From Escherichia phage vB_EcoM_ULIM3, in the sequence record OQ850289: DNA of 64,000 nucleotides; one strand, given 5' to 3'. Position numbers and translations under genes: made by a program. Numbering within the stretch: position 1 is the stretch's first letter; every line of letters starts with the position of its first letter. This document shows positions 11,756 to 42,495 of the stretch, in pieces. Below the pieces are notes generated by a model, which did no database searches, was not told where the DNA came from, and saw only the letters and a program-made list of their open reading frames with translations.

Positions 11756-11767
11756 GTTAAACACCTA

Positions 11768-12633: not shown

Positions 12634-12634
12634 A

Positions 12635-26133: not shown

Positions 26134-27174
26134 ATGGAGAAGTACACATTAACAAAACTTCCCGATTCAGTTACACATGTTTTTATTGACTCTGACAGTA
26201 TTGCCTATAAAGGTGCTTGTGTAGTTGAGAAAGCAAAATATAAATATGTCAATAAACTCACAGCAGAGGAATCTGATTCGTTTGATAATGCAAAAGATGC
26301 TGCAAGATGGTTAGCAGACCAGAGAATCCTTGTGGAAGAGCTTGGCCTGACATTTGATGAAGATGAATGGGAAAGACAGACTTGGAAAGAAGCTAAGAGT
26401 GAGAAAGAAGCTATCATGGCGACTCAACAGGTGCTTCAGGAATGGCTTAAGGTTGTTGGTAAAGAAAGAACTTGGGTGGGTTATTTAACAGAGAAAGGTG
26501 TGCATAAGCATAAAGACATTAAAGGTCTTGAGCACCAATATCAAGGTAACCGTAAAGATGCTGTCACACCAACACACTTAGTTGCTTGTCGTGAATATCT
26601 TCTGTCAAGACCAGAGTTCAAACTCTTAAGGGGTGGCTTCGAAGCCGATTCAATCGTAATTGCTAAAGCTGAAAAGATGGGTAAGAAAGCTGCTCTTATG
26701 AGTATTGACAAAGACCTTCGACAAGCTGAAGGGACTTATTGTATTGATATGACTTATGAAAAGTCACCACTGATTTTTATTGCTGACAACAATGTTGGTG
26801 ATATCTGGGATTGCCCTATCAAATCAAAACCAAAAGCTGCAAAAACAGTTGGTGTAGGTTTTAAATTCTTGTGTTATCAGGCTGTTGCTGGAGATAATGC
26901 AGACAACTACTTTGGCCTTAAAGGTGCTGGTAAAGTAGCTGTGATGAATGCTTTAGATGGTAAAGAGACCTACAAAGAGTGTCTTGATGCTATCTATGAA
27001 CTCTATGCTAAAAAAGAGTCTTACACCTATGTGTCATGGGATGGACAGACTGTTACCAAAACACCATTAGAGTTAATGGAACAACATTTCTGGGTAGCAT
27101 ATCAAGAGAGAAATCCAAAAGATAATTTCTCTTTTAAGAAATATAATTGGGAGCCGTGTATGAATGAAGATTAA
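26134..27174 (+). CDS. putative 5'-3' exonuclease / RNase H (FEN family)
   Basis: 346 aa; acidic clusters THVFIDSDSIA and FEADSIVIAKAEK...MSIDKD resemble T4 RNase H. Confidence 0.55.
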   Translation: MEKYTLTKLPDSVTHVFIDSDSIAYKGACVVEKAKYKYVNKLTAEESDSFDNAKDAARWLADQRILVEELGLTFDEDEWERQTWKEAKSEKEAIMATQQVLQEWLKVVGKERTWVGYLTEKGVHKHKDIKGLEHQYQGNRKDAVTPTHLVACREYLLSRPEFKLLRGGFEADSIVIAKAEKMGKKAALMSIDKDLRQAEGTYCIDMTYEKSPLIFIADNNVGDIWDCPIKSKPKAAKTVGVGFKFLCYQAVAGDNADNYFGLKGAGKVAVMNALDGKETYKECLDAIYELYAKKESYTYVSWDGQTVTKTPLELMEQHFWVAYQERNPKDNFSFKKYNWEPCMNED

Positions 27175-27661
27175 AGGATTTGGCAATTGCCCCACCTATG
27201 GTCATTGGGTATCTTTGTGTGGGGAAGTTGACCCCACTAAACATTTTGGCTTTGTCTATTTAGTATACTGTAAGAAAACCGGACAATATTATATCGGAAA
27301 GAAACAGCTTAATAGTGTGACCAAAAGAAAAGTTGCTGGCAAGACTCGGAAGAAGGTAGTCACTAAGGAAAGTGATTGGATGACTTATGAGACTTCTTCT
27401 GAGTATATTAAAAAAGATATTGAGAGCTTTGGAAAAGAATTTTTTGACTTTTATATTATTCAAACCTACCACACAAAAGGTGGTCTAGTTTATGGTGAAG
27501 CAAACCTTCAACATAAATTCGATGTAATGACAAAAAGGATTGACTCTAAGCTCAGACTCTTCTACAATGCCAATATTGCAGCAATTAAGTTTATTACTAA
27601 AGAAACTTATGAAGATGCTGAAAAAAGAATCCATAAGGTAATGAAAGCAAACTGTGCTTGA
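27164..27661 (+). CDS. putative GIY-YIG endonuclease
   Basis: 165 aa; motif FVYLVYCKKTGQYYIGKK (GIY..YIG). Confidence 0.55.
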   Translation: MKIKGFGNCPTYGHWVSLCGEVDPTKHFGFVYLVYCKKTGQYYIGKKQLNSVTKRKVAGKTRKKVVTKESDWMTYETSSEYIKKDIESFGKEFFDFYIIQTYHTKGGLVYGEANLQHKFDVMTKRIDSKLRLFYNANIAAIKFITKETYEDAEKRIHKVMKANCA

Positions 27662-27667
27662 TAACTA

Positions 27668-27931
27668 TTGAGAGAGAATAAAATGTTTAACAAAAGTAAA
27701 GCTGTGAGTCATGTAGCAAAAGTTGACAGCAAGATTGAAGAACTTGAGCGCATTCTTGCAAATGCCAGAGAGTCAATAATTAAAGAGGTTGAAGCTGTTG
27801 AATCTCAAATGCAGCACCTAATGCTTAAACGTCAAGAGCTACGTGAGCATCTGGAATATATTGAAACACGAGAGCTAAAGGTTAACAGATATTTTAAGGA
27901 GTCAGAATGTTTAACTCAAGAGAATCAGTAA
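27668..27931 (+). CDS. hypothetical protein
   Basis: 87 aa ORF. Confidence 0.45.
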   Translation: MRENKMFNKSKAVSHVAKVDSKIEELERILANARESIIKEVEAVESQMQHLMLKRQELREHLEYIETRELKVNRYFKESECLTQENQ

Positions 27932-28662
27932 AAAACTGGAATCTTCGTTGTGGAAACACTCAAAAGCAACCCTACAGCAATGAGTATTGGGAATCTTTGA
28001 AATCTCAATCTCTATGTATGCTTGAAGAAGCAAAAGAGCTTGTAAAAGCAATTGAAGAGAAAGACCCCATTGAGACACTGGATGCTCAGGCAGATTTGCA
28101 ATATGTTCTTGACGGTTTGATTTACCTGTCACAACATGACCATAATGGTGCTATGGAAGCTGTTTGCCATAACAATGACCTAAAATACACAGACAACTAT
28201 GAAGAAGCTTTAAAACGTCTTGCAGATATTGAGAAGCGTACTGGTCAAGAGTGTATCATCAGAATGTCAGTAGTTGATGGCAAAGAATGGTATGCAATTG
28301 TTCGTGCAGCCGATGGGAAGATTATGAAGCAATCTAATCTCCCTAAAGTTCAGCTTGGTGAATACATTGTAGAACTTGAAAGCCAAGAACTTTTTGTGGT
28401 AGTATCTGAGACATGCGTTATCTGCAAAGGTATTGTATGTAGCTTAAAGGATTTGGGTGTAGATGGTTTTGTAGAAGTTAATCCAATTACCTCTAAAGCA
28501 GATAAAGATTTCTGTAAAGAGAATGGACTATGGATTGCAGATATTGTCTACTATGATGGTGAGCAGTTCCATGTAACCTCATACCCAAAACTGAATTATG
28601 ATGCTAATAACCTGAAGTGCTGGTTAAAAGGGGTTGGTTATAATGGATTCACAGAACATTAA
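27907..28662 (+). CDS. hypothetical protein
   Basis: 251 aa ORF. Confidence 0.55.
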   Translation: MFNSRESVKNWNLRCGNTQKQPYSNEYWESLKSQSLCMLEEAKELVKAIEEKDPIETLDAQADLQYVLDGLIYLSQHDHNGAMEAVCHNNDLKYTDNYEEALKRLADIEKRTGQECIIRMSVVDGKEWYAIVRAADGKIMKQSNLPKVQLGEYIVELESQELFVVVSETCVICKGIVCSLKDLGVDGFVEVNPITSKADKDFCKENGLWIADIVYYDGEQFHVTSYPKLNYDANNLKCWLKGVGYNGFTEH

Positions 28663-28966
28663 TAAAGAAGGTGTGGCTCAGAAGAGCCACTTCTCAAACT
28701 ACAATATCTCTATGACGGTGTTTATGAATGACCCGTTACTTGAGAAGTATGGTGAGACTCCAGATACACTTCTGGATAATGAACAAGTTTTAAAAGCAGT
28801 TCTGTACAAATACGGGATTGATATTGAGAAAGAGTATTCTTTTGAAATCTGTCAACACAGGAATACTTTTGGTAAAGTTGTAATGGCTCCACTCTTCATG
28901 GGTGTAGAAAGAACTGACTATGGTTGGTTATATCTAAAAAGAAACTTGGAGAAATACCGTGTCTAA
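28634..28966 (+). CDS. hypothetical protein
   Basis: 110 aa ORF. Confidence 0.45.
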   Translation: MVIMDSQNINKEGVAQKSHFSNYNISMTVFMNDPLLEKYGETPDTLLDNEQVLKAVLYKYGIDIEKEYSFEICQHRNTFGKVVMAPLFMGVERTDYGWLYLKRNLEKYRV

Positions 28967-29291
28967 AGCAAAAAAGCTATCTTATGATGACATTATCTCA
29001 GGTGCTAAATTAGGTGTTGATAGTATCGGACAAGATGTTAAGCACGGGGACACAGTCATGTACTGTGACGACAGAAGAGGCAGAAGTGCAATCTTGTTTG
29101 GAAGAGTTGTGTGCAAGATGCGAGGTAATTACGTTGTTGAAGACATGAATGTGGATGTCACAAAACAGCTTGAAATAATTATGAATAGTAATATATCATG
29201 GTTCGTGAATTGTATGCACACCTCTTCAGTCACAAAGGTAAGTGATAAGTTTTACGATATGTGGCAGAATGAGCAAATTTTCAAGATTTAA
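28959..29291 (+). CDS. hypothetical protein
   Basis: 110 aa ORF followed by terminator. Confidence 0.5.
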   Translation: MSKAKKLSYDDIISGAKLGVDSIGQDVKHGDTVMYCDDRRGRSAILFGRVVCKMRGNYVVEDMNVDVTKQLEIIMNSNISWFVNCMHTSSVTKVSDKFYDMWQNEQIFKI

Positions 29292-29295
29292 ACTA

Positions 29296-29321
29296 GGGAG
29301 CCTCTTCGGAGGCTCTTTTCA
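29296..29321 (+). terminator. intrinsic terminator
   Basis: GGGAGCCTC-TTCG-GAGGCTC followed by TTTTC. Confidence 0.7.
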
Positions 29322-29337
29322 TCTGTAGGATTCAAAA

Positions 29338-31572
29338 ATGATTAAGACAATTAAAAAATCAAACGGTACAGTAGTAAGCTTTGACCCAGAAAGACTGAAT
29401 AAGTGGGCATCATGGGCAGATAAGCGTGGAATCATCTGGTCAGAAGTCACTATGGAAGCCATGAAACGTGTCTATGAAGGTTGCACTACAAAAGAGATGC
29501 ACCAAGCTATGATTGATGTTTGTGTTGATAAACAAACTCAAGAGTACTCAGACATGGCTGGGCGGCTACTTCTGGGGATTATCTACAAAGAAGCCTTTGG
29601 GGGCTTTACTAAGGTTCCTACGCTGATTACCTTCGTTAAAAATATGGAGAGAGCAGGACTTTGGGAGAAGATGGATTATTCACAGGAAGAGCTTGAATAC
29701 CTGCAAGGTTACATCGTGCACTCAAAAGATATCTCTTACGGTTATGCAGTCTTGAAACAGTTCAGAGACAAGTACGGCATCCGTGATATTAAAACGGGAA
29801 GACTGTTTGAGTCACCACAATTTATGTTTATGGGTATGGCTATGAAAGCCTTTGAGAAGCAACCAAAGCACCGTAGACTGCAAGATGTTATCAAGCTGTA
29901 CACTTACCTATCTGACCTGAAGATTAACGCTCCTACGCCTTATTTAAACGGTTTAAGAGCCACCAAGTCAGGCTATGCGTCATGCTGTTTGATTAAGGCA
30001 AATGATACTGCTGAATCACTTGGTATTGCTGCAAAGGTTGCTTATGATATGACTACAAAGCAAGCTGGTATTGGTATGCTGATGGAGACTCGCACTATTG
30101 GTGATGGTATCCGTCAAAATACTATTGAGCACATGGGTAAACTACCTTATTACAAGCTTGTACGTTCATCTGTAGAGGCAAACAAACAGAAGAGTCGTGG
30201 TGGTTCAGCTAATAACTTCTACACTGCTCTAGACCCGCAGATTGAAGATTTACTGCGTTTGAAGCACCCTACAACGGTTCCTTCTAAACGTATTAATGAG
30301 ATGGACTACTCATTCGGCACAAACGATTATTTCTGGCAGTGTGTTCAGTATGATACAGATTGGTTGCTATTCTCTTACAAAGATGCACCAAAACTCTATG
30401 ATATGTTCTACACAGCATCTGCTGATGAGTTTGCTATGGCAGTTGGTCACGCAGTACATTCAGGAGTTAAGCACAGACGAGTCAAGGCTCGTGAAATTGC
30501 TAAGCTGTTTATTCAACAGCGTTATGCTACAGGTCGTGTGTATCCATTCTTCACTAACAACGCAAACACACATACACCATTTAAAGAACCATTGAAGATG
30601 TCAAATCTTTGTATGGAAATTGTATTGCCAGTGTATGGTTTTGAGAAAGAGACAGACCTTTACAGAGACGATGCTGTGAAAGAGGATGGTGAGGTGGCTC
30701 TTTGCTTCCTAGCTAGTTTGGTTGCAGGGAGAATTTCAGAAGATGAATACGCTGACGTTGCTTATTATGCTCTTGCAATGGTTGACTCCGTTATTGACCT
30801 TATGGATTATCCGTATCCGTCGATGCGTAACCATGTTCAGAAGCGTCGTTCTGTTGGGATTGGCCTTACAAATGTGGCTCATTACCTTGCGAAGAACTAC
30901 GTGAACTACTCTTCACGAGCAGGTAAAACGAAACTTCATGAACTTGCAGAGATGCACTCTTACTATCTGCATGAAGCCTCGCTGAGACTTGCTAAAGAAC
31001 GTGGCGTGCCAGAGTACATGAAGTTCACTAAGTATCCTGAAGGCTGGGTTCCTCCAAAGACAGCTAACAAGAAGATTGATGAAAAGCATGATGCAAAACT
31101 ACGATATGATTGGGATGACTTAGCACAACGTATCAAAGAAAATGGTGGAATCCGAAACTCTGTATTAGAAGCTTACATGCCTAATGAGAGTTCTTCACTA
31201 GCAACTAATACGACAAATGGCTTGTACCCAATTCGTGACTTTATTTTAACTAAAAAGTCTGCAACTGGTAACGTGCTGTTTATTGTTCCAGATTATGAAG
31301 AGTTGAAGTATGTCTATGAAATTGCTTGGGGTATTGACACCTTTGACCTGATTGATTGTTATGCAATTGTTCAAAAGTTCACTGGTCAAGCTATCTCTTC
31401 AGATTTCTATGTTGACTACGCAAAAGCTAAGAAGGTATCATTGGCTCAAGCTTTGAAGTACATGATTTATGCCAACTCGGTAGGTATGAAAACCATGTAC
31501 TACCTTAACAGTCGCATTGGTGTAGGTAAATCTGCACTGCAAGATGCTTATTGCGAGGGTTGTGGTGTTTAG
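29338..31572 (+). CDS. nrdA: ribonucleotide reductase class I alpha subunit
   Basis: 744 aa; N-terminal ATP-cone-like region (VVSFDPERL), large-subunit size, immediately followed by nrdB and glutaredoxin. Confidence 0.85.
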   Translation: MIKTIKKSNGTVVSFDPERLNKWASWADKRGIIWSEVTMEAMKRVYEGCTTKEMHQAMIDVCVDKQTQEYSDMAGRLLLGIIYKEAFGGFTKVPTLITFVKNMERAGLWEKMDYSQEELEYLQGYIVHSKDISYGYAVLKQFRDKYGIRDIKTGRLFESPQFMFMGMAMKAFEKQPKHRRLQDVIKLYTYLSDLKINAPTPYLNGLRATKSGYASCCLIKANDTAESLGIAAKVAYDMTTKQAGIGMLMETRTIGDGIRQNTIEHMGKLPYYKLVRSSVEANKQKSRGGSANNFYTALDPQIEDLLRLKHPTTVPSKRINEMDYSFGTNDYFWQCVQYDTDWLLFSYKDAPKLYDMFYTASADEFAMAVGHAVHSGVKHRRVKAREIAKLFIQQRYATGRVYPFFTNNANTHTPFKEPLKMSNLCMEIVLPVYGFEKETDLYRDDAVKEDGEVALCFLASLVAGRISEDEYADVAYYALAMVDSVIDLMDYPYPSMRNHVQKRRSVGIGLTNVAHYLAKNYVNYSSRAGKTKLHELAEMHSYYLHEASLRLAKERGVPEYMKFTKYPEGWVPPKTANKKIDEKHDAKLRYDWDDLAQRIKENGGIRNSVLEAYMPNESSSLATNTTNGLYPIRDFILTKKSATGNVLFIVPDYEELKYVYEIAWGIDTFDLIDCYAIVQKFTGQAISSDFYVDYAKAKKVSLAQALKYMIYANSVGMKTMYYLNSRIGVGKSALQDAYCEGCGV

Positions 31573-31627
31573 TTTTAACAACTATGAGGGTCGTAAAAGA
31601 CCCTCTAAAAATAACTTTGGAGAGACC

Positions 31628-31885
31628 ATGAAAGATTTAATAGAAAAACATGAGCGACCAATATACTTGCTCTACAAACCCCGCAAAACATTGTACTATG
31701 TGAGCAGCACAGGTATCATGATAAAGCAGAATGATGACTTATGGGTCACTGGAGCATCTTACATCTCTACAGCAGATGGTAAAATCTACGCAAGACCTTA
31801 TGAGATGTTTAACAAAGAGAATTGGGAAGTTTTAGACAGAAAACAAGCCTTAGAAATGATAAAGAAAGGAGAAATCACGCTATGA
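31628..31885 (+). CDS. hypothetical protein
   Basis: Track ORF 31544-31885 trimmed to ATG 31628 (MKDLIEK) with GGAGAG SD. Confidence 0.4.
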   Translation: MKDLIEKHERPIYLLYKPRKTLYYVSSTGIMIKQNDDLWVTGASYISTADGKIYARPYEMFNKENWEVLDRKQALEMIKKGEITL

Positions 31886-32955
31886 TTAACCAGCACCCAA
31901 TCTTTTTAGGTGGTGAGAGAAAAACTTTTGACTCACTTAATAAGCACTACCCAAAAATCTTCGAACTTTATAAACAACAAAAAGCACAAGACTGGTCAGA
32001 AGATGAGTTCCCTTTTGAACAATCACGTCTTGATTTTGAGAGTGTCCCAGCATCAATGTCAGGTGTAATGCTTGAGATTCTTAAGTGGCAGTGGGAAGCA
32101 GACACTCAAGTTGCTAAGAGCTTGGCATTTGCCTTTGCACCCTTTATCTCTGATGACATCTATGCAACTGCAATTATGAAGCAGTCTGAGATTGAAAACC
32201 TACACGCTCTTACTTACTCAGAGATTGTAAGACAATGTATTAAAAACCCTGAAACAATCTTAGATGAGATTAACCAGAATGTTGCTGTACAAGACCGATT
32301 AAAAACTGTGAATCGTGTTCTTGAAGAATTACTGGATGAAGGTATAAACTATCGTCTGAGTTATGTGCGTGACTCACTTCTGGACAAAGACCCTTTACAC
32401 TTCCATAAAGTGATTCTAAAAGGTCTATTTGCAGTGACTGCACTTGAAGGTATTTCTTTTATGGCATCTTTTGCATGTACTTTTGCACTTGATGCTCAAG
32501 ATAAATTTCAAGGTATTGCTCAAGCTGTCCAGAAAATTATGCTTGACGAAATCCTTCACACTAAAATTGATATTGAAGTTTTAAAAGAAACTTTAAGAGA
32601 TGATGAGTGGCAAAAAGCTTTCCAACAAATTCTTCCAGAGATTAAAGTAATCTTAGATGAAGTAGTTGAAAGTGAAGAGAAATGGTCGTATTATATCTTC
32701 TCCGAAGGACGTGCTGTAGTTGGGTTAAATACAAAGCTTCTTCATGAGTGGGTTTACTATAATGCTGCCCCACTGTATGATATGTTTGGCATTCCCAGAG
32801 ATTTTGTAGCTCCTAAAGAACCACCTTTGAAGTATATGATTAAGAAGATGGAAATTGATAAAGAGCAGAATGCTAATCAGGAGCAACAGAACGGTGCGTA
32901 TTTATTGAATACTATTGTAGATGATTTGAATAGTGGATTTTTAGAGGTTCCTTAA
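31882..32955 (+). CDS. nrdB: ribonucleotide reductase class I beta subunit
   Basis: Start set to ATG 31882 with AAGGAG SD; small-subunit size, directly after nrdA. Confidence 0.8.
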   Translation: MINQHPIFLGGERKTFDSLNKHYPKIFELYKQQKAQDWSEDEFPFEQSRLDFESVPASMSGVMLEILKWQWEADTQVAKSLAFAFAPFISDDIYATAIMKQSEIENLHALTYSEIVRQCIKNPETILDEINQNVAVQDRLKTVNRVLEELLDEGINYRLSYVRDSLLDKDPLHFHKVILKGLFAVTALEGISFMASFACTFALDAQDKFQGIAQAVQKIMLDEILHTKIDIEVLKETLRDDEWQKAFQQILPEIKVILDEVVESEEKWSYYIFSEGRAVVGLNTKLLHEWVYYNAAPLYDMFGIPRDFVAPKEPPLKYMIKKMEIDKEQNANQEQQNGAYLLNTIVDDLNSGFLEVP

Positions 32956-33197
32956 TGACTTATGTAATTTACTCCAAAACTGGATGCCCTCAGTGTGAGA
33001 CTGCAAAGAATTTTGCGAAAGCTCGTGGTATTGACCATGTTGTGAGAATGTTAGGGCAGGATTATGAACTGCCAGACCTGATGGATATTGCACAGATGCC
33101 AGTTCGTCAGATGCCATTCATCATGAAAACTGACGGTCAAAACCTAAAACCTGTTGGGACGCTACAGAATTTTATGGCAGAGGTGAATAATGCTTAA
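32955..33197 (+). CDS. glutaredoxin-like protein
   Basis: 80 aa; N-terminal CPQC redox motif (YSKTGCPQCETAK). Confidence 0.75.
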   Translation: MTYVIYSKTGCPQCETAKNFAKARGIDHVVRMLGQDYELPDLMDIAQMPVRQMPFIMKTDGQNLKPVGTLQNFMAEVNNA

Positions 33198-33396
33198 ACG
33201 CATTTGGGAAGGTTTGGTTGTTGATGCACCAGCTATTGTGATTGGTATGCTGATTGTTAACCTATTTACTGACTTTGAACAAGGTTCATTGTTTGGAGCC
33301 ATGTTACTATGGGTTATCTTCGAAATATTAGAGATACAGCTAGGCATCACTGAAAAACTAAGAAAACTCGTTTCAAAGTTTTCTAAAAAGATTTAA
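33190..33396 (+). CDS. small membrane protein
   Basis: 68 aa hydrophobic ORF. Confidence 0.4.
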   Translation: MLKRIWEGLVVDAPAIVIGMLIVNLFTDFEQGSLFGAMLLWVIFEILEIQLGITEKLRKLVSKFSKKI

Positions 33397-33401
33397 AATG
33401 A

Positions 33402-33425
33402 AAGGGTCTCTTCGGAGACCTTTTT
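33402..33425 (+). terminator. intrinsic terminator
   Basis: GGGTCTC-TTCG-GAGACC followed by TTTTT. Confidence 0.7.
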
Positions 33426-33444
33426 AGCATGTAAAGGTGCAATA

Positions 33445-35589
33445 ATGAACAAAGTACAGATTATTAAAAAGAATGGCTCACTTGAAGAACCTGATATCAA
33501 AAAAGTTTTAGCAGCAGTAACTAAGTCAGCTAACAGGGTTGGATATAAAGAACTCCCACCAGATGTTACCCAAGCTCTTGAGTCAGCATTCATGAGGATT
33601 CTGGTAAAGTCCACTAAGCAGAATAATTTACTCATCTCAGTCAATGATATTCACAGCATTGTTGAGGGTGCTTTGGCAGAAGTCAATCACGAGATTTATG
33701 AGTCTTACTCAACATACAGAAATTACCGGAAAGAGGTTGCTCAAAATTGGGATGAGCTTTACCAAAAGACTAGAGACACGCTCTTCTTAGGTGACCGTGA
33801 AAACGCTAACTTTGACAGCAGTTTAATTTCTACAAAAGGTTCAATTATTCGTGGTTACCTGACTAAAGAAATCTTTAAGCAGTACCATTTAACACCAGAG
33901 GAACTTGAAGCCATTGAAAAAGGGTTTATCTACATCCATGACTTAAGAGACCTGATTTTTGGCGGCATTAACTGTTGCTTGTTTGACATTGGTAAAGTAC
34001 TGAAAGGTGGCTTTGAAATGTCTGGCATCGAATACTGTGAACCGAAGTCTGTACTGTCAGCCTTACAGGTTATTGGTGATGTAGTTCTTTCAGCAACTGC
34101 ACAGCAATTTGGCGGCTTTACTTTAGCAGAGATTGATAAGGTACTTGTACCGTATGCTAAGAAGTCTCTACGCTACCATGCTGAGAAAGCAGCATCTTAT
34201 GGTATTCCTAAAGAACATTACCATAATTATATCATGGAGCAGCTACAGATTGAATTAACTCAAGGTTTTCAGTCACTTGAAATGAAACTGAACACTGTAC
34301 CTTGCAGCCGTGGTGATTTCGCATTCACAACTTTAACATTTGGTTTACTTGACTCAGATATGTCTAATGAAGACAACCGACTACAATACATGATTGCAAG
34401 TACTCTCCTAGATGTTCGTATGAATGGACAAGGTAAGAGCAAAAAACCTGTTGTATTCCCTAAACTTGTTTATATCTACGACCAGAAGAGACATGATGAA
34501 AATATCTGTCAAGGTCACCTGTACAGTAAAGCTATTGAGTGTTGCTCTAAAGCAATGTATCCAGATTTCTTAAGTGTATCTGGTCATGGTGCTGTAGCAG
34601 AGGCTTTTGAGCGTTCTGGTAAGGTGATTTCACCGATGGGTTGCAGAGCCTTCTTATCTCCATATCTTAATGAGGATGGGGAAGAGTTCTATGTTGGTCG
34701 TGCTAACATTGGTGCTGTATCTTTGAACTTGCCAATGATTTACCAGTATTCTAAAGAGAATGGTTTAGATTTCTGGAAAGAGCTTGATAAGTACCTAGAG
34801 ATGATTCGCAGCTTCCACAAGAAACGCTACGAAATGATTGCTAATATGCCAGCAAGTTCTAACCCTCTTGCATTCACACAAGGTGGTTTGTACAAAGGTA
34901 TTAAGAAACCTACTGATAAGGTTGGTTGGGATATTGTGAAGTCCTTCACAGCTTCTTTTGGGGTTACCGCACTGGATGAGTTATCTGTTCTTGCTGAAGG
35001 TAAACGGCTGCATGAAGCTGGGAGCTATAGTTTTGCATACGATGTTCTGGCATACATTAACATGAAAACTGAAGAGTTTAAAAATGAAGATGGCTTCTTA
35101 TATGCTGTCTATGGTACTCCAGCAGAATCACTTTGTGGAACTCAGCTAAAACAGTTCAGAGAAATGTTTGGTGTTATTAAAGGCGTTTCTGACAAGGAAT
35201 ACTTTACAAACAGTTTCCATATGAATGTTACGGCAGACATCTCACCATTTGAGAAGCAGGACTTAGAAGAGCCATTCTTCCATATCTGTAGAGGTGGCAG
35301 AATCCAGTATGTAAGGGTAGCTAACCCAGAAAACTTAACAGCACTTAAAAGTTGTATTACCAGAGGGATGTTGAAGGGTTTTTATCAGGGACTTAACTTT
35401 GACTTAGCAATCTGTGAGCATTGTGGTAACAGACCAAAGGCTGATGTTGAAGAATGTGAGGTTTGCCATTCACATGATATCTCTGTGATTAACAGGGTGT
35501 GTGGGTATCTTGGGTGGACTAAGATTAAAGGCGAATCCCGAATGAACGATGCAAAAATTGCTGAGATTCGTGACAGAATCTCTATGTAA
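33445..35589 (+). CDS. nrdD: anaerobic ribonucleoside-triphosphate reductase
   Basis: 714 aa; C-terminal Cys cluster CEHCGN..CEVCH and glycyl-radical motif RVCGYLG. Confidence 0.85.
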   Translation: MNKVQIIKKNGSLEEPDIKKVLAAVTKSANRVGYKELPPDVTQALESAFMRILVKSTKQNNLLISVNDIHSIVEGALAEVNHEIYESYSTYRNYRKEVAQNWDELYQKTRDTLFLGDRENANFDSSLISTKGSIIRGYLTKEIFKQYHLTPEELEAIEKGFIYIHDLRDLIFGGINCCLFDIGKVLKGGFEMSGIEYCEPKSVLSALQVIGDVVLSATAQQFGGFTLAEIDKVLVPYAKKSLRYHAEKAASYGIPKEHYHNYIMEQLQIELTQGFQSLEMKLNTVPCSRGDFAFTTLTFGLLDSDMSNEDNRLQYMIASTLLDVRMNGQGKSKKPVVFPKLVYIYDQKRHDENICQGHLYSKAIECCSKAMYPDFLSVSGHGAVAEAFERSGKVISPMGCRAFLSPYLNEDGEEFYVGRANIGAVSLNLPMIYQYSKENGLDFWKELDKYLEMIRSFHKKRYEMIANMPASSNPLAFTQGGLYKGIKKPTDKVGWDIVKSFTASFGVTALDELSVLAEGKRLHEAGSYSFAYDVLAYINMKTEEFKNEDGFLYAVYGTPAESLCGTQLKQFREMFGVIKGVSDKEYFTNSFHMNVTADISPFEKQDLEEPFFHICRGGRIQYVRVANPENLTALKSCITRGMLKGFYQGLNFDLAICEHCGNRPKADVEECEVCHSHDISVINRVCGYLGWTKIKGESRMNDAKIAEIRDRISM

Positions 35590-35598
35590 AACTTGACA

Positions 35599-35639
35599 AG
35601 GTGATGTGGGTGTTGATAGGCTTACATCACCTTTTTTAT
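35599..35639 (+). terminator. intrinsic terminator
   Basis: AGGTGATGT-loop-ACATCACCT followed by TTTTTT. Confidence 0.6.
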
Positions 35640-35743
35640 TGGATGTTAGACATGGCAGAGAGTATTATTGGGTTGTTCATAGGTTCTGTCTTACTAGGGT
35701 TCTTTTTAGGACTCTCTTATTGTGAGTTGAGAGATAAGTTAAA

Positions 35744-35944
35744 ATGTTTAAAATACCAAAAACGTTGATATACATACTACATATTCTAGTCTTCTTCTTT
35801 GGGGTTAGTGTTATGGTATGGGGTTTCTCAGACCCACAATGGAGTTTTGCATATCATGGTCAGATGGATTTATGGTCATGCTTCAAACCATTTTTAGGGT
35901 TAGCTATAGCATTCAGTGCATTGCCAACTAAGGTGAAATTATGA
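35744..35944 (+). CDS. small membrane protein
   Basis: 66 aa, two hydrophobic segments. Confidence 0.45.
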   Translation: MFKIPKTLIYILHILVFFFGVSVMVWGFSDPQWSFAYHGQMDLWSCFKPFLGLAIAFSALPTKVKL

Positions 35945-36336
35945 TTAAGTTGAACCAAAAACAGTTAGAGTGGATTAAAGATTATGCCTCAGAGTGTGGC
36001 TCTTATGAAAAGAATCACGTAAGATACTCAACATTCCACACGACCTTTACATTGTACATTAGTGACAACGTTCTAAGTGATTCCGTAGAAGATTGTGCAG
36101 CGTTGCCTAATGAGTTGCTTGACAAATTAGTTGTAGTCACTGGAACTTGGTCTGAAGAAGACGGCCATGAATTATCTAACGATGTTGTCTTCTACAGTAT
36201 TGATAACATTATGAATCCAGAGTACATTATGTTAATGACTTGTGCACAAGACTGTGTGCCATTGCAAAACTTCATTAAAGAGCACTGTGAAGAGTTTATT
36301 ACTAAACTGGTTCCTTATCAGGTGGTATTTGAATGA
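35941..36336 (+). CDS. hypothetical protein
   Basis: 131 aa ORF. Confidence 0.5.
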   Translation: MIKLNQKQLEWIKDYASECGSYEKNHVRYSTFHTTFTLYISDNVLSDSVEDCAALPNELLDKLVVVTGTWSEEDGHELSNDVVFYSIDNIMNPEYIMLMTCAQDCVPLQNFIKEHCEEFITKLVPYQVVFE

Positions 36337-36395
36337 GTAAAACAATTCGAAGAAAAGGTTTAAATAATATTTATATGTATTGGTGAGGTAACTAG

Positions 36396-36881
36396 ATGAA
36401 TTACATGGAGATTAGGCCATTTGACACAGCTAATGGTGAAGGGGTTCGTGTAAGCCTCTTTGTAGCTGGTTGTAAGCACCACTGTGAAGGCTGCTTCAAC
36501 AGGGAGTCTTGGAAGTTTAATGCTGGTAAAGAGTTTACTTATGCAAACCTCTACGGCATCATTAAGTTAATGGATGATGAGGCCATCAGTGGGTTGTCAA
36601 TACTCGGTGGAGAACCTCTGGATGATAGAAATATTCGGGAGGTCACCAACATTTGTAAACGTATTAAAACTGTTTACCCAGAAAAGTCTATCTGGCTCTG
36701 GACAGGGTTTCAACTACACGAAAAAATTCACTTAGATGTGATGAAATATGTTGACGTGGTGATTGATGGTAAGTATGATTCATCTAAACCAACAGTCAAA
36801 CCTTATCGTGGTTCTGATAACCAAAACCTCTGGAGAAAAGAGTATGGGTGGCAAGGTGATTGTCAATGGCGAGCAGAATAA
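36396..36881 (+). CDS. nrdG: anaerobic ribonucleotide reductase activating protein (radical SAM)
   Basis: 161 aa; CKHHCEGCFN = CxxxCxxC radical-SAM cluster motif near N-terminus. Confidence 0.8.
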   Translation: MNYMEIRPFDTANGEGVRVSLFVAGCKHHCEGCFNRESWKFNAGKEFTYANLYGIIKLMDDEAISGLSILGGEPLDDRNIREVTNICKRIKTVYPEKSIWLWTGFQLHEKIHLDVMKYVDVVIDGKYDSSKPTVKPYRGSDNQNLWRKEYGWQGDCQWRAE

Positions 36882-36962
36882 ATTTAAATGTTGGTGACAG
36901 TATTGTTGGTGTCACTGAAAAGAACTTAAAACATTTTGTGAAAAGATTGAGAGAGATATGAA

Positions 36963-37220
36963 ATGGGACTCTGGAATAGTTTTAAATCAAAAGTAAAAGC
37001 AGCACTAGCTTCATTAGGTATGCTCACTGGTGTTGATGTGGCTCATCTTATGCAGAACTTCAAGATGGATGAGAAGCTGGCTAATGAGATTATGAAAAGT
37101 ATCTATGTAGGCCGTGGTAAAGGTGGTAAGAAACAAGCACATCGACCAACTGGTGCAGCAGCTATTAAACGGGCAGCTAAGAAAGCTCGTAACCGTAAAC
37201 GTAATAAGAAGGCTAAATAA
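36963..37220 (+). CDS. hypothetical basic protein
   Basis: 85 aa; Lys/Arg-rich C-terminus. Confidence 0.45.
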   Translation: MGLWNSFKSKVKAALASLGMLTGVDVAHLMQNFKMDEKLANEIMKSIYVGRGKGGKKQAHRPTGAAAIKRAAKKARNRKRNKKAK

Positions 37221-37222
37221 TC

Positions 37223-37543
37223 ATGAGCAAAGTTTATAACACTCGTAAATTACAGATTTTCGTACTGTGCCAGTTTATGGCTAAAGAGTATAACTACTAC
37301 TACTGTGGCACAGGGTTCATCAGTGACAATGACGGCTCATATCTACCGTTCAAAGAGGCTGTAAAACTCTTCAATGAAGAAGTAAGCTCTAAGAAAGATA
37401 TCGAAAAGGTTAAGCTAACCTACAGTAAGAAAGATAAGAAGATTATCTGCCTAGATAACTTTGTAAAAGTTACTGGAGAAGCAAAAGAGTTTATGGATGA
37501 GAGTGAGATTTCATTCACAAGCATCTTGAAAGTAGCTCAGTAA
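37223..37543 (+). CDS. hypothetical protein
   Basis: 106 aa ORF followed by terminator. Confidence 0.5.
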   Translation: MSKVYNTRKLQIFVLCQFMAKEYNYYYCGTGFISDNDGSYLPFKEAVKLFNEEVSSKKDIEKVKLTYSKKDKKIICLDNFVKVTGEAKEFMDESEISFTSILKVAQ

Positions 37544-37555
37544 ACAGATACTATA

Positions 37556-37581
37556 AGGGAACTGTAAAGGTTCCCTTTTTA
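37556..37581 (+). terminator. intrinsic terminator
   Basis: AAGGGAAC-loop-GTTCCCTT followed by TTT. Confidence 0.65.
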
Positions 37582-37594
37582 TTTTGGAGATAAC

Positions 37595-37945
37595 ATGTAT
37601 CTGTCAAACCTGAAACGTTCTGCTGCAATGTCAGTGTTAAGACTCAGTTTTGATGAGCGTCAAGAGTTTATAGACTCCCACAAATATGACCCTTCAAATT
37701 CTAATCACATGGTTCTTTGGAATCGTGATAACTTCCGTGAAAGAGCACTTGTCCGTTATTACCCACACTACACAATAGATAACCTGTATGAATGGTGTGT
37801 TGTGAAGAACACCATTGCAACACTGAACAATCTTTGCAGGTATACGGGTAAGCAAACATTTACATTAGGTCATCACAAACCTGTTACAAAAGGTGGTGAA
37901 CATCACTGTGCAAACTGGTTTATCCAAACTAAAGCTGATAACTAG
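37595..37945 (+). CDS. putative small HNH-like nuclease
   Basis: 116 aa; C-terminal GHHKPVTKGGEHHCANW resembles an HNH motif. Confidence 0.35.
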   Translation: MYLSNLKRSAAMSVLRLSFDERQEFIDSHKYDPSNSNHMVLWNRDNFRERALVRYYPHYTIDNLYEWCVVKNTIATLNNLCRYTGKQTFTLGHHKPVTKGGEHHCANWFIQTKADN

Positions 37946-38102
37946 AAGCAAGGAGATAGCCTCCTAAGTATCCCTAAGATGACCTATGAAGAGCAAGAGA
38001 AATATATCAAAAATAATATGCCAGATGTGCTTGACAACAACTATACAGATTTGGCAATATCTCTCCTGTTGAAGTTCGAGACAGTTTATAGGGCAACTTA
38101 TA

Positions 38103-38381
38103 ATGGCTAAAGAAAAGTGGGAGATTTTACCATTAGTCAGTGAAGGAGGTAATGGTTGTGAAATGTACATGATACGTGGTCATGTTCCAGAGCCAATTGC
38201 ACTTGAGATGGTAAACAACTTTACAGATGGTTCTTACAAAGACTTAGGCGAACCAACTGTCAAGCAACAATGGGTTAAACCTGTACCAGACAGCACAGGT
38301 AACTGTAGTGTACTTTATCACGTTGTAGACCCTGCAAAATGCAAATCTGCAATGGCAGTAACAAACGTAACTTTTGATTGA
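38103..38381 (+). CDS. hypothetical protein
   Basis: 92 aa ORF. Confidence 0.45.
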   Translation: MAKEKWEILPLVSEGGNGCEMYMIRGHVPEPIALEMVNNFTDGSYKDLGEPTVKQQWVKPVPDSTGNCSVLYHVVDPAKCKSAMAVTNVTFD

Positions 38382-39274
38382 GAGAGAAAACTATGAAAAC
38401 ATCTATCCGTGTCACAATTCATTCACCGACTAAAGGAACTCATGAAGAAGAGTTTAACATAATCCAATTCCCTTCTGGTGAGATTGGTGGCCACTTTTCA
38501 CAAGAGCTTGTTGATTTTACTGCTTATGCAGCATCATCTATTAACAATGTGGTTATGATTGTAAAGGGTTATGACAAAGACACACTGTTTGCTGTGGCAC
38601 TGGCTAAAGAAGCAATTGACGATTTAGTTCCTCATGATTATGCCCTGAAGACTGTCATTTTTTACTACTTGCCAAATGCACGATACGACCGTCACATGTT
38701 TAAAGGCGACGCAGCAGCTTTAAAGGTTTTTGCTAAACAGGTAAATGCAATGGGATTTGGTGCAGTCTGTGCAGTTGACCCTCACAGTTATGTACCAGAT
38801 AACCTGTTTAACTGCTTCCAAAGTATTCCTCAAAAGGAGATTGCAGTCCACTATGCAAATGACCCTCTAATTGATTACTTAGTAGCCCCAGATGCAGGTG
38901 CTTCTAAGAAGATTGCAGAGACTGCTAAAGAGGTGGATAAACCATATATCACAATGTCTAAGGTGCGAAATCTTAAGACTGGAGAAATCACTGGTATGCG
39001 AATCCTTGACGATGTTGATTTGACCGATAAAACCGTCATGATTCTTGATGATATCTGTGATGGTGGTCGAACCTTCGTAGAGGCAGCTAAACACCTACGT
39101 GAAGCAGGTGCAAAACGTGTTGAGCTTTATGTAACACATGGTATCTTCTCTAAAGGTGTTGAAAACCTTCTTGACAACGGTATCGACCATATTTACACTA
39201 CAAACTCTTTAGGCGAAGCTAAAGACCGTGGCTTAACACATTATGGTCAAGTTACTGTAGCAAACATTGATTAG
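38378..39274 (+). CDS. ribose-phosphate pyrophosphokinase family protein (Prs-like)
   Basis: 298 aa; PRTase motif VMILDDICDGGRTF, PHDYALKTVIFYYLPNARYDR and VAPDAGASKK collinear with Prs. Confidence 0.8.
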   Translation: MREKTMKTSIRVTIHSPTKGTHEEEFNIIQFPSGEIGGHFSQELVDFTAYAASSINNVVMIVKGYDKDTLFAVALAKEAIDDLVPHDYALKTVIFYYLPNARYDRHMFKGDAAALKVFAKQVNAMGFGAVCAVDPHSYVPDNLFNCFQSIPQKEIAVHYANDPLIDYLVAPDAGASKKIAETAKEVDKPYITMSKVRNLKTGEITGMRILDDVDLTDKTVMILDDICDGGRTFVEAAKHLREAGAKRVELYVTHGIFSKGVENLLDNGIDHIYTTNSLGEAKDRGLTHYGQVTVANID

Positions 39275-39282
39275 GTAACAGT

Positions 39283-39774
39283 ATGAATAAGGGTTATTTT
39301 GAAAGATACCTAATATATGAACCAGATACAGGTTTATTAATTTGGAGAGTAACCCTTTGCAGTACCGCTATTGCTGGTAATGTGGCTGGCACAAGGTCTA
39401 AGAAGGGTTATATCCAAGTCCAGATAAATAAGAAGAGGTACTATGCACATAATATTGCATGGATTATGTCTGGAGGTGAGATACCAAGTGGATATGAGAT
39501 AGACCACATAGACCTTGATAAATCTAATAATAAGTTGGAGAATTTAAGACTTAGCACAAAGTCACAAAATCAGAGGAACAGGGGTATATACAAGAATAAT
39601 AAAACTGGTGTGAAGGGTGTAAGTTTTTGTAAACAAACAGGTCTTTACAAAGCAAGAGTCATGCTTTACCATAAAGAATACTTTTGTGGAAGATTTAAAA
39701 CGGTAGAAGAAGCAAAAGAAGCTGTAATTAAAAAGCGAATAGAACTTCATGGTGAGTTTGCAAGACATAACTAA
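39283..39774 (+). CDS. HNH homing endonuclease with AP2-like DNA-binding domain
   Basis: 163 aa; HNH region YAHNIAW..IDHIDLDKSNNKLENLRLSTKSQN; AP2-like KGVSFCKQTGLYKARV..FKTVEEA; inserted between Prs-like and NAMPT-like genes. Confidence 0.75.
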   Translation: MNKGYFERYLIYEPDTGLLIWRVTLCSTAIAGNVAGTRSKKGYIQVQINKKRYYAHNIAWIMSGGEIPSGYEIDHIDLDKSNNKLENLRLSTKSQNQRNRGIYKNNKTGVKGVSFCKQTGLYKARVMLYHKEYFCGRFKTVEEAKEAVIKKRIELHGEFARHN

Positions 39775-39788
39775 GAGAGAGATAAAAT

Positions 39789-41570: not shown

Positions 41571-41584
41571 AAGTATATGATAAG

Positions 41585-41608
41585 AGGCTCCTACGGGAGC
41601 CTTTTTAA
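41585..41608 (+). terminator. intrinsic terminator
   Basis: GAGGCTCC-TAC-GGGAGCCTT followed by TTTT. Confidence 0.7.
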
Positions 41609-41623
41609 TTTCTGGAGAATGCT

Positions 41624-42309: not shown

Positions 42310-42467
42310 AAATTCTACTGTCACTTGGTAGCGTAGCAGTATTTGTTTATCTTCTTTGTAAGTACTATGCAGAGCACAAAAAATGTGACTACTGTAATGG
42401 AGAAGGTTATACAAGAGCAGGTTGCTGCCCTATGTGTGGTGGTTCTGGTAAAATGTTTAATAAGTGA
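42291..42467 (+). CDS. small membrane-anchored protein with two CxxCxGxG (DnaJ-type zinc finger-like) motifs
   Basis: 58 aa ORF below track cutoff; GAGGTGA SD; TM segment then CDYCNGEG and CPMCGGSG. Confidence 0.4.
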   Translation: MQAYWIEILLSLGSVAVFVYLLCKYYAEHKKCDYCNGEGYTRAGCCPMCGGSGKMFNK

Positions 42468-42495
42468 TTTAACAGTAAACTAAGAGGAAAGTATT

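What the first reader, a model, noticed from the sequence alone, without database searches (positions are those of the whole stretch)
27164..39774. Free-standing homing endonucleases embedded in metabolism and replication genes
A GIY-YIG ORF overlaps the 3' end of the exonuclease gene, an HNH-like ORF precedes the Prs-like gene, and an HNH-AP2 ORF separates the Prs-like and NAMPT-like genes. Their placement suggests mobile-endonuclease insertions that may drive spread or exclusion of the flanking genes.
Basis: inference. Interest (0 to 1): 0.4.

Follow-up and report, generated by a model that had tools for sequence, protein, structure and literature searches.

The report
One mobile endonuclease, two resident genes
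In this Felix O1-like phage only the HNH-AP2 gene between prs and nadV behaves as a mobile homing endonuclease, a kind already known in these phages; the GIY-YIG gene and the 'HNH-like' gene are fixed residents present in nearly all relatives.

Summary
The window comes from a Felixounavirus (Felix O1-like myophage); 262 GenBank phage records match this 16-kb module.

All three ORFs exist at the stated coordinates, but they behave differently.

- **C (39283-39774, HNH_3 + AP2).** This is a genuine free-standing homing endonuclease gene. About 60 genomes carry it and 191 have a contiguous empty site. It always sits between prs and nadV, where it replaces a 30-nt hairpin. Between genera it is 90% identical while its flanks are 75-77%. 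It travels with about 105 nt of the nadV 5' end.
- **A (27164-27661, SegE-type GIY-YIG).** It overlaps the exonuclease gene by 11 nt. It is present in essentially all relatives, including other Ounavirinae genera and metagenomic relatives at 50% identity, always right after the exonuclease. dN/dS is 0.03-0.06. It is a core gene, not an insertion.
- **B (37595-37945).** It is a conserved 171-aa protein cut short here by a private CAG>TAG mutation. Its HNH nature rests only on a motif.

Felix O1 HNH and HNH-AP2 endonucleases are already published, so the finding is ordinary and its interpretation is right for one ORF of three.

The parts
26134..27174 (+). 5'-3' exonuclease gene. Its last 11 nt overlap the start of the GIY-YIG gene. 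This is the endonuclease-free allele of the exo|A junction.
   Evidence: phrog_107 exonuclease 1.4e-63. In relatives that carry an HNH-AP2 insert, the exo 3' end is replaced by a different sequence.
27164..27661 (+). A: conserved single-domain GIY-YIG (SegE-type) protein, 165 aa. It is a core gene of Ounavirinae, not a sporadic insertion.
37223..37543 (+). DUF7390 ORF, 106 aa. Several GenBank records label it 'putative HNH endonuclease', but nothing here supports that. It is conserved in relatives.
   Evidence: Pfam DUF7390 1.5e-17 and no HNH hit. Annotations. Present in L001-L008.
37595..37945 (+). B: amber-truncated allele (116 aa) of a conserved 171-aa protein that carries an HNH-like motif GHHxPxxxGGxHxxxNWxIQxxxxN.
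   Evidence: DNA found in 265 records.
37943..37945 (+). Private nonsense codon TAG; relatives have CAG. It is the only difference from phage SeKF_63 across 37595-38412.
   Evidence: No 116-aa copy exists in the 5.8-billion-protein database.
37946..38110 (+). In-frame remainder of B (55 codons) downstream of the amber codon; still intact.
   Evidence: The family HMM scores it 1.1e-10.
38393..39274 (+). prs (ribose-phosphate pyrophosphokinase-like). The ORF listing extends it to TTG 38378. The stop codon is TAG in all genomes carrying C and TAA or TGA in all genomes lacking it.
   Evidence: phrog_619 3.2e-97..
39275..39282 (+). Left junction GTAACAGT between the prs stop codon and the start of C. 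Together with C it replaces 30 nt of the empty-site spacer, including its hairpin.
39283..39774 (+). C: free-standing HNH_3 + AP2 homing endonuclease gene, 163 aa, with an intact D74-H75...N87...N96 motif.
   Evidence: Pfam and PHROG. 63 records, 21 of them at 99% identity or more. All ten copies fetched are intact. Paralogue alignment.
39775..39788 (+). Right junction GAGAGAGATAAAAT, the nadV ribosome-binding region. It is kept in both occupied and empty sites.
39789..39893 (+). First ~105 nt of nadV: a haplotype block linked to C. It is the co-conversion tract and the candidate target or immunity region.
   Evidence: Divergence between genomes with and without C is 0.21-0.32 here against 0.04-0.06 elsewhere. 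91-92% identical to Moogle and SUSP1 while the rest of nadV is 75%. In a tree of this segment all genomes carrying C cluster together across genera.
39842..39848 (+). The five nadV sites (39842, 39845-39848) at which all 10 genomes with C differ from all 8 without it (codons 18-20: AAG GCA TCA against AAA TCT GGT).
39789..41570 (+). nadV (nicotinamide phosphoribosyltransferase).
   Evidence: phrog_448 1.1e-201; Pfam NAPRTase 7e-35.
37565..40929 (.). 3.4-kb divergent, internally mosaic patch relative to the nearest relative VpaE1_ev035, which lacks C. C lies inside the patch, and the patch has near-identical DNA on both sides.

Best explanation
The region is the standard nucleotide-metabolism and replication module of a Felix O1-like phage: exonuclease, MazG, nrdAB, glutaredoxin, nrdDG, prs and nadV. 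Only C (39283-39774) is a mobile free-standing homing endonuclease gene.

How C most likely works:
- Its HNH_3 domain cuts or nicks the allele that lacks C, at or near the prs|nadV junction. The AP2 domain binds the DNA. This step is inferred.
- The likely recognition region is the first ~100 nt of nadV, with codons 18-21 as the prime candidate. This is inferred.
- Repair from the genome that carries C copies in the gene together with flanking DNA. The sequence footprints of this are shown here.
- Genomes that carry C hold a recoded nadV 5' end that would protect them from cutting. This is inferred.

A (27164-27661) is a vertically inherited single-domain GIY-YIG nuclease gene. It is translationally coupled to the 5'-3' exonuclease gene across the subfamily and is under strong purifying selection. 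It is most likely a domesticated nuclease working in phage DNA metabolism, for example nicking DNA for the exonuclease. That function is inferred.

B (37595-37945) is a lineage-restricted conserved gene, possibly a divergent HNH-type protein. A recent nonsense mutation has inactivated it in this phage.
For: Identity of the phage: 262 phage records match, 207 of them over at least 80% of the query, and almost all are Felixounavirus.

C:
- Pfam HNH_3 1.7e-19 plus AP2 4.5e-4; phrog_99 2.9e-68.
- Its DNA is in only 63 records, 21 of them at 99% identity or more.
- The empty junction is contiguous in 191 records, and 57 more match only the nadV half.
- Empty sites are a 44-46-nt spacer with a conserved hairpin GGGGCT-N4-AGCCCC followed by ATTTT or ACTTT. 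Occupied sites replace 30 nt of that spacer at the same nucleotide in three genera.
- Against Moogle and SUSP1, C is 90% identical and nadV nt 1-105 is 91-92%, while prs is 76-77% and the rest of nadV is 75%.
- Divergence between genomes with and without C peaks at 0.21-0.32 only in nadV nt 1-105. Five fixed differences lie at nadV nt 54-60.
- Carriers and non-carriers are interleaved in the tree of the rest of nadV, but carriers are monophyletic in the tree of nt 1-105.
- Against ev035, which lacks C, the window has 0-2 mismatches in almost every kb over 9000-37564 and one mismatch in 40930-42000, but 401 mismatches over 36000-42600, almost all in 37565-40929 around C.
- All ten copies fetched are intact, with dN/dS 0.12-0.19.

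A:
- Pfam SegE_GIY-YIG 1e-27.
- DNA in 297 records, including Erwinia and Hafnia phages at about 69% identity.
- Immediately after the exonuclease gene in phiEa104, L019 (50% identity) and L022.
- dN/dS 0.03-0.06, as low as the exonuclease and nrd genes.
- Catalytic-type residues are invariant.

B:
- DNA in 265 records.
- 171 aa in relatives; a single C>T creates TAG in the window.
- dN/dS 0.08-0.25.
- Conserved motif across a family at 23-46% identity.
Against: - No cleavage data exist for any of the three proteins.
- The target site of C is inferred from linked polymorphisms. These could be pure hitch-hiking with no role in immunity.
- The AP2 match is below Pfam's cut-off.
- The 3.4-kb patch against ev035 is itself a mosaic of at least three donor types. 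The window also differs from ev035 in other tracts (6-9 kb and everything beyond 42.6 kb). Ordinary recombination, not a homing event, could therefore have made the patch.
- A's cellular function is entirely inferred from gene context.
- B's HNH assignment failed every significance test.
Confidence: 0.85

Rival explanations
1. One reading: all three ORFs are free-standing homing endonuclease insertions that currently drive the spread or exclusion of their flanking genes.
For: A has a bona fide GIY-YIG domain of the T4 Seg type. Several GenBank records call it a 'GIY-YIG homing endonuclease'. B has an HNH-like motif. The surrounding module holds many endonuclease insertions in relatives.
Against: A and B are present at the same position in essentially every relative. 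They diverge in step with the genome. No empty sites were found. A lacks a separate DNA-binding domain. B is not demonstrably a nuclease.
Confidence: 0.03
2. C is ancestral at the prs|nadV junction and has been lost repeatedly. Its patchy distribution reflects deletion and ordinary recombination, not active homing.
For: C occupies exactly the same site in three genera. JH2 lacks C yet carries carrier-type sequence for nadV nt 1-53. That fits a loss or a partial back-conversion.
Against: Between genera C is 90% identical while its flanks are 75-77%. This shows transfer after the genera diverged. Empty sites in both Felixounavirus and Mooglevirus share a conserved hairpin spacer, which independent deletions would not recreate. 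The outgroup phiEa104 has prs and nadV 13 nt apart with no insert. 21 copies are at least 99% identical in genomes whose flanks are about 94% identical.
Confidence: 0.07
3. A is a homing endonuclease that has reached fixation in Ounavirinae and is still selfish. It would persist by cutting the genomes of more distant co-infecting phages (marker exclusion) and would serve no function for its own phage.
For: It has a Seg-type GIY-YIG domain. T4 Seg proteins mediate marker exclusion (established knowledge). Its position overlapping a conserved DNA-metabolism gene resembles the layout of free-standing endonuclease genes.
Against: Endonuclease genes that become fixed normally decay. A instead shows dN/dS of 0.03-0.06 and is intact down to 50% identity. 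It has no DNA-binding extension that could give site specificity. No relatives lacking A were found to serve as targets.
Confidence: 0.12

Closest known systems
Felix O1 ORF128 (NP_945017) and VpaE1 gp049 (YP_009147398): HNH endonucleases between prs and nadV. Felix 01 HNH-AP2 endonucleases are cited as exemplars of the HNH-AP2 class (PMC4237383). Whichard et al. 2010 report six HNH homing endonuclease genes in Felix O1 (PMC3185647).
   Same: C is the same gene at the same locus. It is 99.8% identical in DNA to the VpaE1 copy and 89.6% to the Felix O1 copy. It has the same HNH_3 + AP2 architecture.
   Different: Nothing of substance differs. New here is the population-level description: about 24% occupancy, the empty-site hairpin, and the 105-nt nadV haplotype block that travels with the gene. 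I did not find that description in the papers I read.
T4-type free-standing homing endonucleases (Seg and Mob families, e.g. SegG at gene 32, MobE at nrdB), which cut a neighbouring conserved gene and spread with co-conversion of flanking markers (established knowledge; review cited in PMC8300805 as its ref. 38).
   Same: C shows the same features: an intergenic position between conserved metabolic genes, sporadic distribution, a tract of flanking sequence that moves with it, and carriers that differ in sequence close to the insertion point.
   Different: C's nuclease is HNH_3 + AP2, not GIY-YIG (Seg) or the MobE-type HNH. Its cleavage site and cutting chemistry (nick or double-strand break) are unknown.
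T4 SegE and Pfam PF19835 (SegE_GIY-YIG). For architecture, the small single-domain GIY-YIG nuclease T4 endonuclease II (DenA, 136 aa; from memory, not tested here).
   Same: A matches the SegE GIY-YIG domain almost end to end (profile positions 10-123 of 123, E=1e-27). It keeps the GIY...YIG...E...N residues. Like EndoII it is a single domain, and it sits among nucleotide-salvage genes.
   Different: T4 Seg proteins are about 190-225 aa with a C-terminal DNA-binding region and are sporadic among T-even phages. A is 165 aa with no such domain, and it is universal and syntenic in its subfamily. No sequence or fold match to EndoII was obtained; it is not among the hits.
HNH (ββα-Me) nucleases of the H-N-N type (Pfam PF01844 and PF14279; PDB 4h9d).
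   Same: The B family conserves GH[HW]xPxxxGGxHxxxNWxIQxxxxN. The model predicts strand-strand-helix across exactly that segment. The weak hits all fall on that segment.
   Different: No hit is significant: Pfam HNH E>=0.033 in 2 of 13 members, PDB 4h9d E=0.83, and hhalign against HNH_3 E=0.3-0.5. The motif has no zinc-binding cysteines. The protein is truncated in this window.

Membership tests
Free-standing homing endonuclease gene: C (39283-39774) | Nuclease domain with an intact catalytic motif | tested here: met
   Pfam HNH_3 at 69.6 bits against a cut-off of 24.8. D74, H75, N83, N87, N96 and N99 are invariant across paralogues at 37-43% identity.
Free-standing homing endonuclease gene: C (39283-39774) | Separate DNA-binding module | tested here: inconclusive
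   AP2 scores E=4.5e-4 at 20.9 bits, below the Pfam cut-off of 33.3. The C-terminal half aligns with HNH-AP2 PHROGs (phrog_99 2.9e-68, phrog_33760). G109, K111, G112, V113 and G136 are conserved.
Free-standing homing endonuclease gene: C (39283-39774) | Present or absent among close relatives at one precise site | tested here: met
   63 records carry it (61 of them over at least 80% of its length), against 191 contiguous empty sites. The junctions are identical in all 10 copies fetched.
Free-standing homing endonuclease gene: C (39283-39774) | Phylogeny incongruent with the flanks, and better conserved than the flanks | tested here: met
   90% identity in C against 75-77% in the flanks between genera. 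Carriers and non-carriers are interleaved in the nadV tree.
Free-standing homing endonuclease gene: C (39283-39774) | Co-conversion tract or target-site polymorphism linked to the gene | tested here: met
   Between-group divergence of 0.21-0.32 confined to nadV nt 1-105. Five fixed differences at nt 54-60.
Free-standing homing endonuclease gene: C (39283-39774) | Site-specific cleavage of the allele that lacks the gene, and super-Mendelian inheritance | not testable with these tools
   This needs cleavage assays and phage crosses.
Free-standing homing endonuclease gene: A (27164-27661) | Present or absent among close relatives | tested here: not met
   297 records hold it, against 262 that hold the module. 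It is present after the exonuclease gene in every locus fetched, including other genera and relatives at 50% identity.
Free-standing homing endonuclease gene: A (27164-27661) | Better conserved than the flanks, or incongruent with them | tested here: not met
   Its dS tracks that of the neighbouring genes (for example 2.39 against Moogle, where exo is 1.59). dN/dS is 0.03-0.06.
Pfam PF19835 SegE_GIY-YIG: A | Score above the curated cut-off, and conserved GIY...YIG...E...N residues | tested here: met
T4 Seg-type architecture: A | N-terminal GIY-YIG domain plus a C-terminal DNA-binding domain (about 190-225 aa in total) | tested here: not met
   A is 165 aa. The domain spans residues 21-138, leaving about 27 residues that form one helix. 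All family members are 157-180 aa.
HNH nuclease (PF01844, PF13392, PF14279): B (37595-37945) | Significant profile or fold match to an HNH family | tested here: inconclusive
   There is no Pfam hit for the window protein or for its full-length relative. Pfam HNH scores E>=0.033 in 2 of 13 relatives. PDB 4h9d scores E=0.83. hhalign against HNH_3 gives E=0.32-0.54. The model has pLDDT 60 and gives no fold hit. The motif is conserved.
Free-standing homing endonuclease gene: B | Present or absent among close relatives | tested here: not met
   265 records hold it, 241 of them over at least 80% of its length. Every Felixounavirus, Mooglevirus and Suspvirus locus fetched carries a full-length copy (473-534 nt as annotated) at this position.

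The most novel reading that the evidence does not exclude
The GIY-YIG gene A may be a domesticated Seg-like nuclease that has become a core partner of the 5'-3' exonuclease across Ounavirinae. It could nick host or phage DNA to feed the exonuclease and the adjacent nucleotide-salvage genes, in the way T4 endonuclease II does. The coupled exo|A junction may also be a recurrent landing pad for unrelated HNH-AP2 homing endonuclease genes. Such inserts are seen in Felix O1, VpaE1, wV8 and Moogle, and in a metagenomic relative at 57% identity.
Probability: 0.3. Interest if true: 0.45.

Novelty: already known. Interest (0 to 1): 0.18.

Why it matters
- It corrects the annotation of three genes. One is a real, probably active homing endonuclease. 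One is a core GIY-YIG nuclease that is widely mislabelled 'NAD synthetase' or 'homing endonuclease'. One is an amber-truncated conserved gene of unknown function.
- For phage phylogeny and for engineering therapeutic Felix O1-like phages, the prs-nadV and exonuclease junctions are gene-conversion hot spots. They should be left out of trees, and they can be used as natural insertion sites.
- The nadV codon 18-21 polymorphism gives a concrete, testable candidate target site for an HNH-AP2 enzyme whose specificity is unknown.

Tried and rejected
- **Structure of B.** The AlphaFold2 model from a 12-sequence alignment had pLDDT 60. Foldseek against the PDB gave nothing below E=0.39, so it is uninformative.
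- **Profile of B against the PDB.** The only 'significant' hits were tandem Protein A domains (E=9e-13). Single Protein A domains score E about 0.8-0.9, so the score comes from the repeats, and I dismissed it as motif-level similarity.
- **hhalign of B against the HNH_3 family.** It aligned the expected motif once, at E=0.32, and aligned a different segment with the more diverse profiles, at E=0.54. There is no support here.
- **Exhaustive HMMER search for distant B relatives.** Only 19 representatives were found among 1.84 billion proteins. The family is tiny and none of its members is annotated.
- **NCBIfam.** No hits for A, B, C or the DUF7390 ORF.
- **Terminator scan of the empty-site hairpin.** It was not called, because it has only four T residues. 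I describe it as terminator-like only.
- **Amber-suppressor tRNA that might read through B.** ARAGORN found no tRNA genes in the window.
- **Paralogues elsewhere in the window.** HMMs of the A, B and C families found only these three loci.
- **Origin of the 'VpaE1_ev' phages.** The literature search found nothing.

Full report
**What the window is.** The 16 kb around the finding match 262 GenBank phage records. Of these, 207 match over at least 80% of the query at 80-97% identity, and almost all are Felixounavirus: Felix O1, wV8, VpaE1 and relatives infecting Escherichia, Salmonella and Shigella. The genes are the well-known Felix O1 early/middle module:
- 5'-3' exonuclease
- a small GIY-YIG protein
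- a MazG-like pyrophosphatase
- nrdA and nrdB
- glutaredoxin
- nrdD and nrdG
- several small ORFs
- prs
- an HNH gene
- nadV

**Checking the observation.** All three ORFs exist at the stated coordinates.
- **A (27164-27661, 165 aa)** matches Pfam SegE_GIY-YIG at 1e-27. It overlaps the exonuclease stop codon by 11 nt and has a GGGAG ribosome-binding site 9 nt upstream.
- **C (39283-39774, 163 aa)** matches HNH_3 at 1.7e-19. It also matches AP2 at 4.5e-4, which is below Pfam's cut-off. It matches HNH-endonuclease PHROGs at up to 2.9e-68.
- **B (37595-37945, 116 aa)** has no Pfam or NCBIfam family. Its PHROG, phrog_3500, has unknown function, and the profile is 170 positions long although the ORF has only 116 residues.

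**B is a truncated allele.** Relatives annotate this ORF at 473-534 nt, and most have 516 nt (171 aa), ending 8 nt inside the next gene. The window has one C>T change that turns CAG into TAG at 37943-37945. The remaining 55 codons are intact and in frame.

Across 37595-38412 this is the only difference from phage SeKF_63. No 116-aa copy exists among 5.8 billion database proteins. The mutation is therefore private and recent, or a sequencing error.

**Test 1: are the genes sporadic?**
- A's DNA is found in 297 records. That is more than the 262 that hold the module, because Erwinia and Hafnia Ounavirinae also match at about 69% identity.
- B's DNA is found in 265 records.
- C's DNA is found in only 63 records. 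Of these, 61 match over at least 80% of its length, and 21 are at least 99% identical.
- A 101-nt probe across the unoccupied prs|nadV junction matches contiguously in 191 records. In 57 more it matches only on the nadV side.

Occupancy of C is therefore about 24%.

**Anatomy of the C site.** In genomes without C, prs and nadV are separated by 44-46 nt. The spacer holds a conserved hairpin (GGGGCT-N4-AGCCCC, about -12 kcal/mol), then ATTTT or ACTTT, then the nadV ribosome-binding region. The strict terminator scan does not call this hairpin.

In all ten carrier genomes fetched, 30 nt of this spacer including the hairpin are replaced by GTAACAGT plus the 492-nt ORF. The carriers come from three genera (Felixounavirus, Mooglevirus, Suspvirus), and the boundaries are the same in all of them. 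The prs stop codon is TAG in every carrier and TAA or TGA in every non-carrier.

**Footprints of mobility.**

Against Moogle and SUSP1, identity to the window is as follows:

| Segment | Identity |
|---|---|
| prs | 76-77% |
| C | 90% |
| nadV nt 1-105 | 91-92% |
| rest of nadV | 75% |

- Within Felixounavirus, divergence between carriers and non-carriers is 0.04-0.06 along most of prs and nadV. It jumps to 0.21-0.32 in the first ~105 nt of nadV. It rises slightly in the last ~120 nt of prs.
- Five sites at nadV nt 54-60 (window 39842 and 39845-39848) separate all 10 carriers from all 8 non-carriers.
- In a tree of the rest of nadV, carriers and non-carriers are interleaved: window with ev035, LinBro with bumzen, SUSP1 with Michonne. 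In a tree of nt 1-105, all carriers cluster together regardless of genus.
- JH2 has an empty site but carries carrier-type sequence up to nt 53. It is a recombinant.
- All ten copies of C are intact, with dN/dS 0.12-0.19.

**Comparison with the nearest relative.** VpaE1_ev035 lacks C. The window is nearly identical to it over 9000-37564, with 0-2 mismatches in almost every kb, and again after 40929. In between, the stretch 37565-40929 accounts for almost all of the 401 mismatches counted over 36000-42600. C sits inside this patch.

This is what co-conversion during homing would leave. However, the patch is itself a mosaic: SeKF_63-like over 37595-38412, VpaE1-like over about 39200-39800. The two phages also differ in other tracts (6-9 kb, and everything beyond 42.6 kb). 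Ordinary recombination therefore cannot be excluded for this particular event.

**A is a core gene.**
- In Erwinia phage phiEa104 (genus Kolesnikvirus) the homologue follows the exonuclease gene with an 8-nt overlap.
- In a 90-kb metagenomic contig whose A homologue is only 50% identical, the same order holds: primase/helicase, exonuclease, A, then RNR.
- Family members are all 157-180 aa and consist of the PF19835 domain alone.
- Residues G29, F30, Y32, Y43, G45, K46, K47, E112, N114, H117, R131 and N135 are invariant.
- dN/dS is 0.03-0.06, and dS tracks the neighbouring genes.

A is thus a conserved, probably active, single-domain GIY-YIG nuclease with no separate DNA-binding module.

Its function is inferred from context. 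It is translationally coupled to the exonuclease gene and lies among nucleotide-salvage genes. This suggests a role in DNA processing, comparable in architecture to T4 endonuclease II; that comparison is from memory and was not tested.

The label 'NAD synthetase' in phrog_447 and in many GenBank records has no support in any search here.

**The real mobile element at the exonuclease junction is absent from the window.** In Felix O1, VpaE1, wV8, pinkbiff and SeKF_63 a ~170-aa ORF lies between the exonuclease gene and A. Moogle has a 112-aa remnant there, and a metagenomic relative at 57% identity (L021) has a 163-aa HNH_3 ORF.

The Felix O1, VpaE1, Moogle and L021 copies were aligned with C. 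They are HNH_3-AP2 paralogues of it at 37-43% identity. They rewrite the last ~15 exonuclease codons.

**Is B a nuclease?** An exhaustive HMMER search found only 19 representatives among 1.84 billion proteins. Across members at 23-46% identity the motif [FA]T[LM]GH[HW]xPxxxGGxHxxxNWxIQxxxxN is conserved. The model places strand-strand-helix exactly there. This is compatible with an H-N-N ββα-Me site.

Nothing reaches significance, however.
- Pfam HNH scores E>=0.033 in 2 of 13 members.
- PDB 4h9d scores E=0.83.
- hhalign against HNH_3 gives E=0.3-0.5.
- Foldseek gives nothing.

The verdict on B as a nuclease is inconclusive.

**Comparison with what is known.** Whichard et al. reported six free-standing HNH homing endonuclease genes in Felix O1 (PMC3185647). 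Felix 01 HNH-AP2 endonucleases are cited as exemplars of that class (PMC4237383). Homing endonuclease content is described as variable among Felixounavirus genomes (PMC8300805). The BASEL study warns of gene conversion around such genes (PMC8594841).

C is Felix O1 ORF128 and VpaE1 gp049. The finding is therefore already known in kind and as a gene. What this analysis adds:
- the occupancy figure;
- the exact empty-site structure;
- the 105-nt nadV tract as a candidate target or immunity region;
- the reclassification of A and B.

**Verdict.**
- Observation: partly confirmed.
- Interpretation: right for one ORF of three.
- Novelty: already known.
- Interest: low.

Noticed in passing
window 37943-37945: A private amber codon (CAG>TAG) truncates a gene that is otherwise universally conserved, 171 aa in most relatives. 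It is the only difference from phage SeKF_63 over 818 nt. It could be a recent natural mutation, a laboratory amber mutant or a sequencing error.
   Followed up: yes
window 27140-27174; L003:1434-1949, L004:1434-1958, L006:14480-15004, L021:3523-4014: The exo|GIY-YIG junction is a recurrent landing site for an HNH_3-AP2 gene, a paralogue of C at 37-43% identity. The insert rewrites the last ~15 exonuclease codons. The window carries the insert-free allele.
   Followed up: partly
window 1-64000 against LR699048.1 (L023, L001, L024): The window is a mosaic relative to VpaE1_ev035. It is nearly identical over 1-6000, 9000-37564 and 40930-42500. It diverges over 6000-9000 (the tail-fibre gene region), over 37565-40929, and by about 4-8% from about 42600 to the end.
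   Followed up: partly
window 37625-37765 (B residues ~11-57): The N-terminal part of B resembles the staphylococcal Protein A IgG-binding domain (…EERQEFIxSHxYDPSNSN… against …[20 protein letters not shown]…). The E-value is 9e-13 against tandem-repeat constructs but only about 0.8-0.9 against single domains, so it is probably a chance or motif-level similarity.
   Followed up: partly
window 27164-27661: phrog_447 and many GenBank records call this GIY-YIG protein 'NAD synthetase'. No search here supports that name, which appears to be a propagated misannotation.
   Followed up: partly
window 37223-37543: This DUF7390 ORF is annotated 'putative HNH (homing) endonuclease' in wV8, BPS17W1, pinkbiff, bumzen and Sf17. 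It has no HNH hit in Pfam or PHROGs, and it was found in all eight Felixounavirus and Mooglevirus loci checked for it.
   Followed up: partly
window 35589-36963; L003:10404-10940, 11694-11993, 12451-12828; L005:9436-10267: Relatives carry extra ORFs that the window lacks: a MobE-like endonuclease gene after nrdD (VpaE1), an endonuclease gene that splits nrdD (pinkbiff), a 99-aa ORF before nrdG, and a 125-aa ORF after nrdG.
   Followed up: no
window 38393-39274 (prs): Among Felixounaviruses prs falls into two deeply divergent haplotype groups, about 78-81% and about 90-95% identical to the window. The difference is concentrated in the 5' half and is independent of whether C is present.
   Followed up: no
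L018:~3130-3150 (phage radambza nadV): There is a 15-nt in-frame insertion, which looks like a tandem duplication of TGGTTTAACAGCC-like sequence, near nadV codon 45 in one carrier genome.
   Followed up: no
window 1-64000: ARAGORN finds no tRNA genes in the window, although Felix O1-like genomes are reported to carry about 20. The tRNA cluster must lie outside this window.
   Followed up: no
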